A stretch of 64,000 nt of DNA from Clostridiaceae bacterium (lineage in GTDB: Bacteria; Bacillota; Clostridia; DUPQ01): contig JAAYBX010000020.1 of the NCBI GenBank assembly GCA_012729955.1, positions 15,548 through 79,547 on the forward strand, in the 5' to 3' direction. The first letter of the stretch is position 1. Each line of letters starts with the position of its first letter. Below, piece after piece: positions 29,483-30,969 of the stretch. The translations under genes and the position numbers were made by a program. A model generated the notes under the pieces. It was not told where the DNA came from. It was given only the letters and a program-made list of their open reading frames with translations, and ran no database searches.

Positions 29483-30226
29483 CTAAGATCCCTCTACAAT
29501 GGTGATGTCCATTGTAACTTTAAATTTCCCGCCAATAATGTCATCTGTACATTCAGGATCATCCCCTTCAATCCAGATAACGACAGTAAATTTGGTAATG
29601 TCTCCGGGTTTGAAATAGGCACGTCTGCTTCTGACTGCGATAGACTCTGTTAAGAACTCAATCGTATCTTTCTCCGGGCCTGTTCCATCTTTCTTTGTCT
29701 TGGCATATGTATTCGGATTTCCATCTACATAAAGCCTTATTCTGACAGCTTCATCCACATTCTGAGTTACATTAAGCAAGTTTATAACATATTCATATGT
29801 GACGGCTTCTGAACCCGCATTCTTAAGATAGAATGTATATGCTATGTAATTTGCCCCATTATGCTGACCGTTAATGGAATCAACATTCTCAGGAATGCTG
29901 TAGCCTGAAATGTTTGTGCAGTTCTCAATCGCATCAGCATCCAGTCTGCTTGTAGGACTTAAAAAGTCTGGAGTCTCACTTAAAGACAATGCAAGTTTTA
30001 ACAGAGAACTGCTTTGTGAATCGCTTCCTCCCTTTCCAGAGCTGCCGCTTCCGCTATATGATGTAGACACTGTAAAACTGCTGTATCTGTCATAGAAAGC
30101 AGAGACAAGGTAAGCTGCGGATAACAATATTACTATTGCTATCAGGCTGATGACCAGAGCCCTGAATAAGAGAGAAGTCTTGTGTACACTATATGCGATT
30201 TTAGTAACTGAAGGATCTTTTCTCAT
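29483..30226 (-). CDS. Membrane-anchored paralog of the TasA-like protein (possible anchoring or minor subunit)
   Basis: Signal-anchor TM, an AYLVSAFYD box, a Ser/Gly-rich linker, and the C-terminal motif KFTVVIWIEGDDPEC. That motif aligns with the VRVWIEGQDADC of the adjacent gene. Confidence 0.65.
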   Translation of the reverse strand: MRKDPSVTKIAYSVHKTSLLFRALVISLIAIVILLSAAYLVSAFYDRYSSFTVSTSYSGSGSSGKGGSDSQSSSLLKLALSLSETPDFLSPTSRLDADAIENCTNISGYSIPENVDSINGQHNGANYIAYTFYLKNAGSEAVTYEYVINLLNVTQNVDEAVRIRLYVDGNPNTYAKTKKDGTGPEKDTIEFLTESIAVRSRRAYFKPGDITKFTVVIWIEGDDPECTDDIIGGKFKVTMDITIVEGS

Positions 30227-30969
30227 TATCTTACGCTCCTAGGCTTTCTGTAGTTACCCGCAAGCTTACCTGTGCATAATACACAGCTTTCGGGAAGATT
30301 ACCTGCTGTTTCATCATCTTTTACTGAGGATGTGATAACTTCAATGTTTAGTGCATTTAAAAGATTATACAGAGCTAATGCTGTATTTCTTTTCTCATCT
30401 TTAGGAGAATTTAATGCTTCTGTGAGGTTGTCGCTTAAATGAACATAGTCTGTCTTTATACTGGATATTCTCGATATGGGACAGAAGTCATCTCCAAAAT
30501 CCATTATCATAGATTTAATACCCTCATTTTTGGCTTGTGAGAGTATTTCCATAATTTTTGCATTATCCTCATATAGAACTTTTTTATTTAAGCAAAGACA
30601 TATTTCTTTAGAAGATACATTATTTTCCTCTGCTTTTTTGCATATATCCATTAAAAAATCCTGTTTTGTCAATATTCGGATTGGAATATATACTCCGAAC
30701 CATTCTGCTTCCACATTTCTTGCTCTGAATTTTTGAATATCTGCAAAAAGATTATCAAGTAACCATGATGTAATTTTTTCTGATATAACTGTTCTCTCTG
30801 CTACTGGCATAAAAGCTTCATCAACAAGAACACCCATCAGAGGATCATTTATCCTCAACTGGGTTAAGTATGAATGTATAATTCCGAGTTTTGTATTCAG
30901 TATGGGTAAATAGAATATTTCCAGACTACGGAGATTATATTTAGTTGTTCCTGTTACCATTGCTGCCAT
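30226..30969 (-). CDS. Stand-alone EAL-domain protein, catalytically degenerate. The start is placed at the internal Met; the ORF-track N-terminus overlaps the riboswitch.
   Basis: The EAL fold markers IFYLPI and IMDFGDDFCPISRISSIKTDYVHL are present, but the EALxR signature is replaced by SYLTQLR. Confidence 0.7.
   Translation of the reverse strand: MAAMVTGTTKYNLRSLEIFYLPILNTKLGIIHSYLTQLRINDPLMGVLVDEAFMPVAERTVISEKITSWLLDNLFADIQKFRARNVEAEWFGVYIPIRILTKQDFLMDICKKAEENNVSSKEICLCLNKKVLYEDNAKIMEILSQAKNEGIKSMIMDFGDDFCPISRISSIKTDYVHLSDNLTEALNSPKDEKRNTALALYNLLNALNIEVITSSVKDDETAGNLPESCVLCTGKLAGNYRKPRSVR

What the first reader, a model, noticed from the sequence alone, without database searches (positions are those of the whole stretch)
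30226..30969. Stand-alone EAL domain lacking the catalytic Glu: a candidate c-di-GMP receptor encoded first behind the riboswitch
The fold markers of an EAL domain are present (..IFYLPI.., ..IMDFGDDFCPISRISSIKTDYVHL..). The EALxR signature is replaced by SYLTQLR, so hydrolysis is unlikely. Degenerate EAL proteins in other bacteria (LapD-like, FimX-like) act as c-di-GMP effectors. Together with the riboswitch, this would give both RNA-level and protein-level c-di-GMP control of the same operon.
Basis: partly seen in the sequence, partly recalled or inferred. Interest (0 to 1): 0.55.

Follow-up and report, generated by a model that had tools for sequence, protein, structure and literature searches.

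The report
Catalytically dead EAL protein, fibre operon
A small cytoplasmic protein has the fold of a c-di-GMP-degrading enzyme but lacks 8 of its 10 key residues, and it is the conserved first gene of a c-di-GMP-riboswitch-controlled operon for secreted TasA-like fibre proteins; it cannot be an enzyme, and whether it still senses c-di-GMP is unproven and rather doubtful.

Summary

The receptor reading is only partly supported. The central Arg and one aromatic remain. The other positions used by FimX to hold c-di-GMP are replaced (Q→L21, P→D50, E→S214, Q→T233). [quoted passage not shown] No canonical contact is invariant in the wider family.

The protein belongs to a distinct family of ~245-aa dead EALs under purifying selection (dN/dS 0.1-0.2). 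In every lineage sampled but one, the gene sits immediately upstream of a TasA/AbpA-like membrane protein. Where contigs are long enough, the cluster continues: secreted subunits, two SipW peptidases, a membrane McrB-like AAA+, a DUF2357 protein and an intact GGDEF-EAL phosphodiesterase. The riboswitch is present in 6 of 10 lineages.

Best reading: a dedicated cytoplasmic pseudoenzyme subunit of this fibre machine, acting through protein contacts. c-di-GMP sensing is possible (about 0.3).

The parts
31158..31186 (-). Promoter-like site: TTGACA, 17 nt, TG-n-TAAATT (extended -10), ending about 4 nt before the aptamer match
   Evidence: Consensus scan. The TTGACA and the -10 region are conserved in five orthologous leaders. 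Pattern match only.
31069..31154 (-). c-di-GMP-I (GEMM-I) riboswitch aptamer. The purine 5' of the paired GC (31144), taken as Vc2 G20, is G, which is the c-di-GMP type.
   Evidence: Rfam RF01051, 63.8 bits, E 3.7e-10, full-length model match. G20/A20 rule from PMC6140456. The mapping of position 20 onto this sequence is my inference from the Rfam alignment.
31037..31074 (-). Intrinsic terminator: GCUACAUUGGACUU-AAC-AGGUUC(G)AAUGUAGC followed by UUUUUU. Its 5' arm (31074-31067) contains UACAU (31072-31068), which can instead pair with GUGUA (31153-31149) to close the aptamer.
   Evidence: Hairpin dG -14.4 kcal/mol; the enforced P1 and the terminator exclude each other. Both arms and the U-tract are invariant in five loci while the loop varies. 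Distant orthologous leaders also carry a hairpin plus U-tract right after the aptamer; in L004, L007, L026, L031 and L032 it starts at the aptamer's 3' end, in L030 about 20 nt downstream, and in L021 I saw it by eye only because the script found none. The ON-switch logic is inferred.
30226..30969 (-). Degenerate stand-alone EAL protein (dEAL), 247 aa, cytoplasmic
29483..30226 (-). Conserved partner gene: 247-aa protein with a cytoplasmic N-terminal helix, a membrane span (or long SipW-type signal, ..SAFYDRYSSFTVS..) and a beta-sandwich ectodomain ending in VIWIEGDDPEC. Its start overlaps the dEAL stop (TAATG).
   Evidence: It lies immediately downstream of the dEAL in every lineage examined except L027. 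At least 1467 homologues. AlphaFold pLDDT 82.5. The best Foldseek hits are archaeal bundling pilin AbpA 7ueg (E 1.6e-4) and TasA fibre 8aur (E 7e-4), but TM is only about 0.3.
28595..29422 (-). Secreted subunit, 275 aa, with a SipW-type signal (..STASYAWFTMS..) and a C-terminal VWIEGQDxDC motif
   Evidence: Alignment of 10 orthologues/paralogues. No Pfam or PDB sequence match. Assignment as a fibre subunit is inferred from the signal motif, the neighbouring SipW gene and the motif shared with the partner protein.
27727..28404 (-). SipW-type signal peptidase I (first copy)
   Evidence: NCBIfam TIGR02228, 100 bits against a cut-off of 51.85; SipW equivalog model 125.8 bits, below its cut-off of 190.
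26085..27695 (-). Membrane-anchored McrB-like AAA+ ATPase/GTPase, 536 aa. It is one of the two most conserved proteins of the cluster, with the partner protein.
   Evidence: Weak McrB hits in NCBIfam and the PDB. PADLOC PDC-M26A, E 2.6e-36. 55-84% identity across lineages.
24822..26060 (-). 412-aa protein; its orthologues carry Pfam DUF2357 (McrC-like N-terminal domain)
   Evidence: Precomputed Pfam hits on the orthologues in L029, L031 and L032. No Pfam hit for the window copy itself.
24170..24790 (-). Second SipW-like signal peptidase, 206 aa
   Evidence: Weak Peptidase_S26 hit. 29-30% identical to the first-SipW region of L021 and L031, and syntenic in L003, L004, L029 and L032.
23617..24204 (-). 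195-aa membrane protein of unknown function
   Evidence: ORF list. Syntenic in L003, L004 and L029.
23383..23607 (-). 74-aa coiled-coil-like ORF with an AGGAGG ribosome-binding site. It closes the apparent gap before the GGDEF-EAL gene.
   Evidence: Read from the sequence. A 77-aa gene occupies the same position in L029.
21102..23375 (-). Membrane sensor protein with a degenerate GGDEF (SDGRM) and an intact EAL (EALVR, NVS, ELEFTE, DDFGAGYS, KLD, EGVET, QGY): a probable active c-di-GMP phosphodiesterase and the last gene of the cluster
   Evidence: Pfam EAL 217 bits, GGDEF 34 bits. 10 of 10 canonical residues. Syntenic in L003, L004, L029 and L032.

Best explanation
The gene encodes a catalytically dead EAL-fold pseudoenzyme. 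It is a dedicated cytoplasmic component of a conserved gene cluster for SipW-processed, TasA/AbpA-like surface fibres.

Shown: it has the EAL fold with 8 of 10 catalytic/metal residues replaced. It is under purifying selection. It belongs to a distinct family of ~245-aa stand-alone proteins. It is almost always encoded immediately upstream of, and often overlapping, the membrane-spanning TasA-like partner protein. Where the contigs are long enough, the same cluster order follows.

Inferred: transcription of the cluster is switched ON by c-di-GMP. Closing the ligand-bound aptamer sequesters the 5' arm of the terminator. The c-di-GMP input therefore acts at the RNA level.

The dead EAL protein then most likely works through protein-protein contacts, as YdiV and BluF do. 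It would dock on a cytoplasmic part of the machine and license or scaffold export and assembly of the fibre. The best candidate docking site is the conserved N-terminal cytoplasmic helix of the partner protein, followed by the membrane McrB-like AAA+. Canonical c-di-GMP binding by the protein is not required by any evidence here. If it occurs, it must use a rebuilt, metal-free pocket (Y34, Q37, R39, Y94).

The intact phosphodiesterase at the end of the cluster would give negative feedback on the signal.
For: Fold and degeneracy.

Selection and localisation: dN/dS 0.09-0.24 and no hydrophobic segment.

Distinct family: the profile search finds about 45 stand-alone representatives of ~245 aa scoring 100-400 bits, against 80-95 bits for canonical multi-domain EALs. 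All keep only 0-5 of the 10 residues.

Gene linkage: the partner gene lies directly downstream in the window, L001-L004, L005/L021, L023, L024/L029, L025, L026, L028, L030, L031 and L032. The gap is 50 nt or less in most of them. The window and L003 share a 1-nt TAATG overlap and L032 a 4-nt overlap. The flanking genes differ between lineages.

Independent sampling from the partner-protein side (P0243, a protein carried on several hundred contigs) again found riboswitch > dEAL > partner > ... > AAA+ > DUF2357 > S26 peptidase > GGDEF-EAL.

Divergence: the dEAL diverges much faster than its neighbours (31% against 53% for the partner and 63% for the AAA+ in L029; 23/47/55% in L032). This fits an adaptor surface better than a strictly conserved nucleotide pocket.

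Riboswitch logic.
Against: No partner contact was tested; the tools offered no complex prediction. The most conserved stretch of the family (AYxSQLRINxPxxGVLxPxxYxPVAER) is the wall that binds the nucleotide in real EALs. R39 is kept in 39 of 47 representatives and a Tyr replaces the metal-binding Asn in 34 of 47, which looks like a maintained pocket rather than a decayed one. X. citri FimX also lacks the Glu yet binds c-di-GMP (PMC7288161). The surrounding c-di-GMP context would suit a sensor. Four lineages have the dEAL without a riboswitch, so in those the protein could be the only c-di-GMP input. The AlphaFold model is poor for residues 216-247.
Confidence: 0.5

Rival explanations
1. The dead EAL domain is a c-di-GMP receptor with FimX/LapD logic. 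It binds the dinucleotide without metal and, when loaded, activates export or assembly, for example through the AAA+ as FimX acts on PilB. Together with the ON riboswitch this forms a feed-forward circuit.
Against: The equivalents of FimX Q463, P491, E653 and Q673 are L21, D50, S214 and T233. Only 2 of 10 residues remain, as in the non-binder YdiV. No canonical contact is invariant in the family, and L032 keeps none and has Phe in place of the Arg. It is one of the fastest-evolving proteins of the cluster. About half of the orthologous riboswitches have A at the G20 position, so the signal itself may not be strictly c-di-GMP everywhere.
Confidence: 0.3
2. A pseudoenzyme partner of the cluster's own phosphodiesterase. 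The dead EAL heterodimerises with the intact EAL domain of the GGDEF-EAL membrane protein (EAL activity depends on dimerisation) and tunes its activity, and so the local c-di-GMP level.
For: A dead EAL is the first gene of the cluster and a live EAL is the last gene before rsmD in the window, L003, L004, L029 and L032. Loop 6 (DFGxxxCP) and the following helix, which form the dimer interface in EALs, are conserved in the family.
Against: The two domains are only distantly related (BLAST E 0.09). The tightest linkage is to the partner gene, not to the PDE. The short contigs do not show whether the PDE is always present.
Confidence: 0.1
3. A sensor of a different nucleotide, such as 3'3'-cGAMP, pGpG or a cyclic mononucleotide, using the rebuilt pocket.
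For: The pocket-lining residues are replaced but conserved. An open groove that might take other small molecules was proposed for YdiV. A at the G20 position in the riboswitches of L007, L021, L026 and L031 suggests cGAMP or promiscuous sensing in those lineages.
Against: There is no direct evidence. The window's own riboswitch has G20. The pocket residues vary in the wider family.
Confidence: 0.06
4. An active c-di-GMP phosphodiesterase after all, or a decaying gene remnant without function.
For: A Pfam EAL hit exists. EAL genes behind c-di-GMP riboswitches are common (my own knowledge).
Against: All four metal ligands tested (E, N, E, first D), the catalytic Lys and the general-base Glu are missing, which argues against activity. 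The intact ORF in all lineages, dN/dS 0.1-0.2 and the conserved position argue against decay.
Confidence: 0.04

Closest known systems
YdiV (STM1344) and STM1697, enterobacterial stand-alone EAL-like proteins
   Same: Single-domain EAL fold of about 240 aa. 8 of the 10 conserved residues are lost. No enzymatic role is expected. They act by binding a protein partner, and the groove is retained but rebuilt (PMC3510510).
FimX and LapD degenerate-EAL c-di-GMP receptors
   Same: EAL fold without the catalytic Glu (FimX Xc AFL, LapD KVL). The central Arg is retained. They control a surface appendage or adhesin, and FimX acts on an assembly ATPase.
   Different: Those are multi-domain proteins (REC-PAS-GGDEF-EAL; TM-HAMP-GGDEF-EAL) and keep most nucleotide contacts. 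Here there is a single domain, and the Q, P, E and Q contacts are replaced. Binding is untested.
BluF (YcgF) degenerate EAL
   Same: A degenerate EAL used as a protein-interaction module without c-di-GMP turnover (PMC3509220, abstract seen).
   Different: BluF carries a BLUF light-sensing domain and antagonises a MerR-type repressor. Nothing comparable is present here.
B. subtilis tapA-sipW-tasA, C. perfringens sipW-bsaA, and archaeal bundling pili (AbpA)
   Same: A SipW-type signal peptidase is encoded with secreted beta-sandwich subunits carrying a SipW-type signal motif. The best structural hits of the partner protein are AbpA and TasA fibres.
   Different: No Pfam TasA/camelysin match and low TM-scores. 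This cluster additionally has a dead EAL, an McrB-like AAA+, a DUF2357 protein, a second SipW, a GGDEF-EAL and a c-di-GMP riboswitch, none of which belong to the described TasA/BsaA operons (my own knowledge; nothing found).
c-di-GMP-I riboswitches in front of c-di-GMP turnover or adhesin genes
   Same: A class I aptamer with a terminator-based expression platform upstream of surface-structure genes.
   Different: The first gene regulated is a non-enzymatic EAL relative rather than an active PDE/DGC or the structural gene itself.

Membership tests
EAL domain superfamily (Pfam PF00563) | Profile match above the curated threshold | tested here: met
   92.2 bits against a cut-off of 31.3, E 4.3e-26, covering profile positions 12-217 of 236.
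EAL domain superfamily (Pfam PF00563) | EAL-type TIM-barrel-like fold | tested here: met
Active EAL c-di-GMP phosphodiesterase | Ten conserved residues (E and R of EALxR, N, ExxE, DD, K, E of EGVE, Q of QGY) | tested here: not met
   L35, R39, Y94, C126, K129, M156, D157, H177, S214, T233: 2 of 10 kept. The control EALs in the same alignment score 10 of 10.
FimX/LapD-type degenerate-EAL c-di-GMP receptor | Arg downstream of the EAL motif at the centre of the binding site | tested here: met
   R39 is kept; it is kept in 39 of 47 family representatives. Its role in LapD (R450) comes from PMC3032553.
FimX/LapD-type degenerate-EAL c-di-GMP receptor | Retention of the other nucleotide contacts (FimX Q463, S490/P491, E653/F654, Q673/G674) | tested here: not met
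   By motif equivalence these are L21, V49/D50, S214/S215 and T233/G234, so only the Gly is kept (contact list in PMC7288161). The equivalence is by conserved motifs, not by an explicit alignment to FimX.
FimX/LapD-type degenerate-EAL c-di-GMP receptor | Measured c-di-GMP binding | not testable with these tools
   Needs DRaCALA, ITC or MST on purified protein.
FimX/LapD-type degenerate-EAL c-di-GMP receptor | Multi-domain architecture with a degenerate GGDEF next to the EAL | tested here: not met
   A 247-aa single domain; no other Pfam domain above its curated threshold.
YdiV/STM1697 EAL-like anti-FlhD4C2 factors | Stand-alone EAL-like protein with most conserved residues lost | tested here: met
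   8 of 10 lost, the same count as reported for YdiV.
YdiV/STM1697 EAL-like anti-FlhD4C2 factors | Specific relatedness and the FlhD partner | tested here: not met
c-di-GMP-I riboswitch (RF01051) | Covariance-model score above gathering, plus G at Vc2 position 20 | tested here: met
   63.8 bits against 35. G at 31144, just 5' of the paired GC. The position mapping is inferred; the rule is from PMC6140456.
c-di-GMP-I riboswitch (RF01051) | Ligand-dependent control of the downstream gene, and its direction | tested here: inconclusive
   The terminator overlaps the aptamer's 3' strand, is conserved in five close loci and recurs in distant ones.
SipW/TasA-type fibre operon | SipW-type (archaeal-type) signal peptidase I encoded in the operon | tested here: met
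   TIGR02228, 100 bits against a cut-off of 51.85. A second weaker copy.
SipW/TasA-type fibre operon | TasA/camelysin-family subunit | tested here: inconclusive
   No Pfam or PDB sequence match. The best Foldseek hits of the partner protein are AbpA (E 1.6e-4) and TasA (E 7e-4), but with TM about 0.3. The signal motif ASYAWFT / SAFYD resembles the SipW-cognate class (my own knowledge).

The most novel reading that the evidence does not exclude
The dead EAL is a second-messenger gate of a previously undescribed fibre-secretion machine (SipW peptidases, TasA/AbpA-like subunits and a membrane McrB/DUF2357 motor). It would bind c-di-GMP, or cGAMP in the A20-riboswitch lineages, in a rebuilt metal-free pocket. 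Through the cytoplasmic N-terminal helix of its translationally coupled partner, or through the AAA+, it would license export. The circuit would then have three layers: a riboswitch that turns transcription ON, a protein-level check by the dead EAL, and negative feedback from the intact phosphodiesterase at the operon's end.
Probability: 0.25. Interest if true: 0.7.

Novelty: new variant of a known kind. Interest (0 to 1): 0.45.

Why it matters
Degenerate EAL-only proteins are common; about a quarter of EAL-only proteins lack key residues (PMC3510510). Very few of them have an assigned partner or function. This family comes with a fixed genomic partner and a defined machine, which makes its function directly testable.

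The cluster combines SipW/TasA-like fibres, an McrB-like AAA+, DUF2357, a dead EAL and a live GGDEF-EAL behind a c-di-GMP-I riboswitch. It is widespread in uncultured Clostridia from digesters and in at least one very commonly assembled organism. I found no description of it in the literature searched.

If the dead EAL binds c-di-GMP, the cluster would be a clear case of RNA-level and protein-level control of one operon by the same messenger. If it does not, it adds a Gram-positive example of the YdiV principle, where an enzyme fold is recycled as an adaptor.

Tried and rejected
1. An active PDE was rejected on the residue table.
2. A recent duplicate of the operon's own EAL was rejected (BLAST E 0.09).
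3. The 280-aa TTG-start ORF was rejected as the real start. The extension overlaps the terminator and is not conserved.
4. A metagenome scan with the broad alignment A3 failed because no stretch was conserved enough. The narrower A4 returned mostly close relatives.
6. Profile searches of the subunit family against the PDB and Pfam gave nothing meaningful.
7. An Rfam E-value search of the short leaders of L023-L025 found no weak riboswitch.
8. Literature searches for this operon type (SipW + riboswitch + EAL; BsaA; riboswitch + EAL + signal peptidase) found no description. A search for the Filp/FimX mutagenesis data found nothing in the library, so I do not rely on it.
10. I could not obtain an explicit residue-by-residue alignment to FimX, LapD or YdiV. 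The equivalences are by conserved motifs.
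Full report
**1. What is at the coordinates**

The finding's interval is a minus-strand gene: ATG at 30969 and stop at 30228-30226, 247 aa. A longer ORF from TTG 31068 (280 aa) exists and is used in one public MAG annotation (P0001). That extension runs through the riboswitch terminator. It is absent from ten of the twelve close homologues, which begin at the same MAA/MVA methionine. A GGGG lies 8 nt upstream of the ATG.

**2. How degenerate it is**

I aligned the protein to Bd1971, DosP and MorA. I also aligned it to five canonical EAL domains, including the intact one encoded 7 kb downstream in this same window. 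The ten residues regarded as essential for catalysis and c-di-GMP binding (PMC3510510) read as follows:
- E→L35
- R kept (R39)
- N→Y94
- E→C126
- E→K129
- D→M156
- D kept (D157)
- K→H177
- E→S214
- Q→T233

That is 2 of 10, whereas the control EALs score 10 of 10 in the same alignment. Further substrate-contacting positions are Q of YQP→L21, L of EAL→Q37, P→D50, F kept (F53), and the second E of EGVE→K217. Phosphodiesterase activity can be dismissed for practical purposes.

**3. It is a family, not an accident**

A word-indexed search found only 12 relatives at 45-90% identity. They conserve YxTQLRIND, MPVAER, DFGDxFCP and a basic C-terminus, YRKPRSVR. A full profile search of 1.8 billion representatives found about 45 further stand-alone proteins of ~245 aa at 100-250 bits. 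These stand above the 80-95 bits given by ordinary multi-domain EALs.

All of them keep only 0-5 of the ten residues. Arg is kept in 39 of 47, Tyr replaces the metal-binding Asn in 34 of 47, and Gln replaces the Leu of EAL in 27 of 47. Between orthologues dN/dS is 0.09-0.24, and there is no hydrophobic segment. The protein is therefore a maintained cytoplasmic pseudoenzyme.

**4. Context in the window**

A promoter-like site (31186-31158) is followed by a c-di-GMP-I aptamer (31154-31069, 63.8 bits). Next comes a hairpin, GCUACAUU...AAUGUAGC plus U6 (31074-31037, dG -14.4 kcal/mol). The 5' arm of this terminator contains UACAU, which can instead pair with GUGUA at the 5' end of the aptamer. The two structures exclude each other.

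The terminator arms and the U-tract are invariant in five orthologous leaders, while the loop varies. Other lineages with unrelated leader sequences also carry a hairpin with a U-tract just behind the aptamer. In L004, L007, L026, L031 and L032 it starts at the aptamer's 3' strand. In L030 it lies about 20 nt downstream. In L021 the script found none, and I read one by eye. This is the arrangement expected of an ON switch. It is an inference, not a measurement.

The purine I map to Vc2 G20 is G (31144), which is the c-di-GMP type (rule from PMC6140456).

Behind the dEAL the minus strand carries, without real gaps:
- a 247-aa membrane protein whose ATG overlaps the dEAL stop (TAATG)
- a 275-aa secreted protein with a SipW-type signal (ASYAWFT)
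- a SipW signal peptidase (TIGR02228, 100 bits)
- a membrane McrB-like AAA+
- a 412-aa protein whose orthologues are DUF2357
- a second SipW-like peptidase, a 195-aa membrane protein and a 74-aa ORF
- a sensor protein with a degenerate GGDEF and a fully intact EAL (217 bits)

The partner protein was modelled at pLDDT 82.5. It has a long N-terminal helix and then a beta sandwich. Its best PDB matches are the archaeal bundling pilin AbpA and the TasA fibre, although with low TM-scores. I read the cluster as a SipW-dependent TasA-like fibre or matrix machine. That assignment is moderately supported.

**5. Is the linkage conserved?**

Close relatives (L001-L004, L007-L020) share even the flanking genes, so they are not informative by themselves. 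More distant members are informative:
- P0013 clade (37-39% identity; L005, L021): riboswitch, dEAL, partner, two subunits, SipW, AAA+, with different flanks.
- P0016 (L026): riboswitch, dEAL, partner, subunit.
- P0020 (L030) and P0022 (L031): riboswitch, dEAL and partner, followed in L031 by SipW, AAA+ and DUF2357.
- P0015/P0162 (L024, L029): no riboswitch, but the whole cluster down to the GGDEF-EAL gene.
- P0014 (L023) and P0017 (L025): no riboswitch, dEAL plus partner.
- P0019 (L027): the only exception, with no riboswitch and a 3421-aa protein downstream.

I then sampled from the other side. The partner protein has at least 1467 homologues. One carried on several hundred contigs (P0243) again sits in the order riboswitch > 265-aa dEAL (4-nt overlap) > partner > subunit > peptidase > AAA+ > DUF2357 > S26 > GGDEF-EAL.

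So the dEAL-partner pair, and where contigs are long enough the rest of the cluster, form a conserved module. The riboswitch is frequent but optional: present in 6 of 10 lineages, absent in 4, and undetermined in L028 because only 82 nt of upstream sequence is available.

Within the module the dEAL is one of the fastest-evolving proteins. In L029 it is 31% identical, against 53% for the partner and 63% for the AAA+. In L032 the figures are 23, 47 and 55%.

**6. Receptor or adaptor?**

For a receptor:
- R39 corresponds to the Arg that sits at the centre of the LapD and FimX sites.
- X. citri FimX also lacks the Glu.
- The best-conserved stretch of the family is the former nucleotide-binding wall, with new conserved polar or aromatic residues (Y34, Q37, Y94).
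- The whole module is embedded in c-di-GMP signalling.

Against a receptor:
- Of the FimX contact list (Q463, F479, L480, R481, S490, P491, M495, D508, R534, E653, F654, Q673, G674, D675, T680; PMC7288161), the motif-equivalent positions here keep only the Arg, an aromatic and the Gly.
- The count of 8 lost out of 10 is exactly that of YdiV. That protein cannot bind c-di-GMP, and its groove is described as no longer compatible with the ligand.
- No canonical contact is invariant in the family. The L032 orthologue, in an otherwise identical operon, keeps none of the ten and has Phe in place of the Arg.
- The fast divergence relative to its neighbours is more typical of an adaptor co-evolving with a partner.
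- In about half of the orthologous riboswitches the G20 position is A (L007, L021, L026, L031). In Vc2 that change gives dual c-di-GMP/cGAMP binding, so the messenger may not even be uniform.

I therefore favour a pseudoenzyme acting through protein contacts (0.5) over a c-di-GMP receptor (0.3). Smaller shares go to a regulator of the operon's own phosphodiesterase (0.1), a sensor of another nucleotide (0.06), and an active enzyme or remnant (0.04). None of the partner contacts could be tested here.

**7. Comparison with known systems, and novelty**

As a fold it is an EAL domain (membership met). It is not an active PDE (defining residues not met). It is not a FimX/LapD family member: it has a single domain and most contacts are lost, although it could still work like one. 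It is not a YdiV relative in any phylogenetic sense, although it resembles YdiV most in degree of degeneration and probably in logic.

Degenerate EAL-only proteins are common (450 of 1805, cited). EAL genes behind c-di-GMP riboswitches are familiar. The bare observation is therefore not surprising. The new elements are the definition of a distinct dead-EAL family with a fixed partner, and the module it belongs to. I found no description of that module. I rate it a new variant of a known kind, with interest 0.45.

**8. Limits**

- The equivalences to FimX are by motif, not by explicit alignment.
- The model is weak at the C-terminus.
- The fibre assignment rests on SipW, the signal motifs and weak fold hits.
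- The riboswitch direction is inferred from structure competition.
- The lineage survey is small (about eleven lineages) and drawn from metagenomic contigs, many of them short.

Noticed in passing
window 27695-26085 and 26060-24822 (minus): A membrane-anchored McrB-like AAA+ (PADLOC candidate-defence model PDC-M26A, E 2.6e-36; weak McrB hits) is followed by a protein whose orthologues carry DUF2357 (McrC-like N-terminal domain). The pair is conserved inside a SipW/TasA-like fibre operon, and the AAA+ is among its most conserved proteins. An McrBC-like pair as part of a secretion or assembly machine would be unusual.
   Followed up: partly
window 23375-21102 (minus): The last gene of the cluster encodes a membrane sensor with a degenerate GGDEF (SDGRM) and a fully intact EAL (10 of 10 residues). 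It is syntenic in distant lineages (L029, L032). The operon is thus bracketed by a dead EAL and a live one, which suggests negative feedback on c-di-GMP.
   Followed up: partly
L007 7870-7951, L021 649-726, L026 257-336, L031 1669-1761: In these orthologous riboswitches the purine just 5' of the paired GC (taken as Vc2 G20) is A. It is G in the window, L004, L030 and L032. A20 gives cGAMP or dual specificity in characterised GEMM-I RNAs, so some lineages may drive the same operon with a different or broader signal.
   Followed up: partly
window 23607-23383 (minus): An unlisted 74-aa ORF with a strong AGGAGG ribosome-binding site and coiled-coil-like sequence fills the apparent gap between the 195-aa protein and the GGDEF-EAL gene. 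A 77-aa gene sits at the same place in L029.
   Followed up: partly
window 28577-28547 (minus): A 13-bp GC-rich hairpin (CCUGCCCGUAGCC-GCUAA-GGCUGCGGGCGGG) without a U-tract lies directly after the secreted-subunit gene, and a second hairpin lies before sipW. It may be a partial terminator or an mRNA stabiliser that sets the subunit-to-machinery stoichiometry.
   Followed up: no
window 31047-31020 (minus): A perfect palindromic hairpin, GUAGCUUUUUUAU-UA-AUAAAAAAGCUAC, re-uses the terminator's 3' arm and U-tract. It is conserved in close orthologues. Its role in read-through transcripts is unexplained.
   Followed up: no
window 28404-27727 and 24790-24170 (minus): One operon holds two SipW-type signal peptidase paralogues and two classes of substrate-like N-termini (ASYAWFT in the subunits, SAFYDRYSSF in the partner protein). 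This hints at one peptidase per substrate class.
   Followed up: no
window 31068-30970 (minus): Public annotation of the near-identical MAG protein (P0001, 280 aa) starts at a TTG inside the riboswitch expression platform. This is probably a mis-called start.
   Followed up: yes
L027 8001-16765: This is the one family member not followed by the partner protein. It precedes a 3421-aa secreted repeat protein and has no riboswitch.
   Followed up: no
L019 920-1186; L030 1277-9260: A group II intron lies about 6 kb upstream of the operon in L019. A prophage-like terminase/portal block lies directly upstream of the operon in L030.
   Followed up: no
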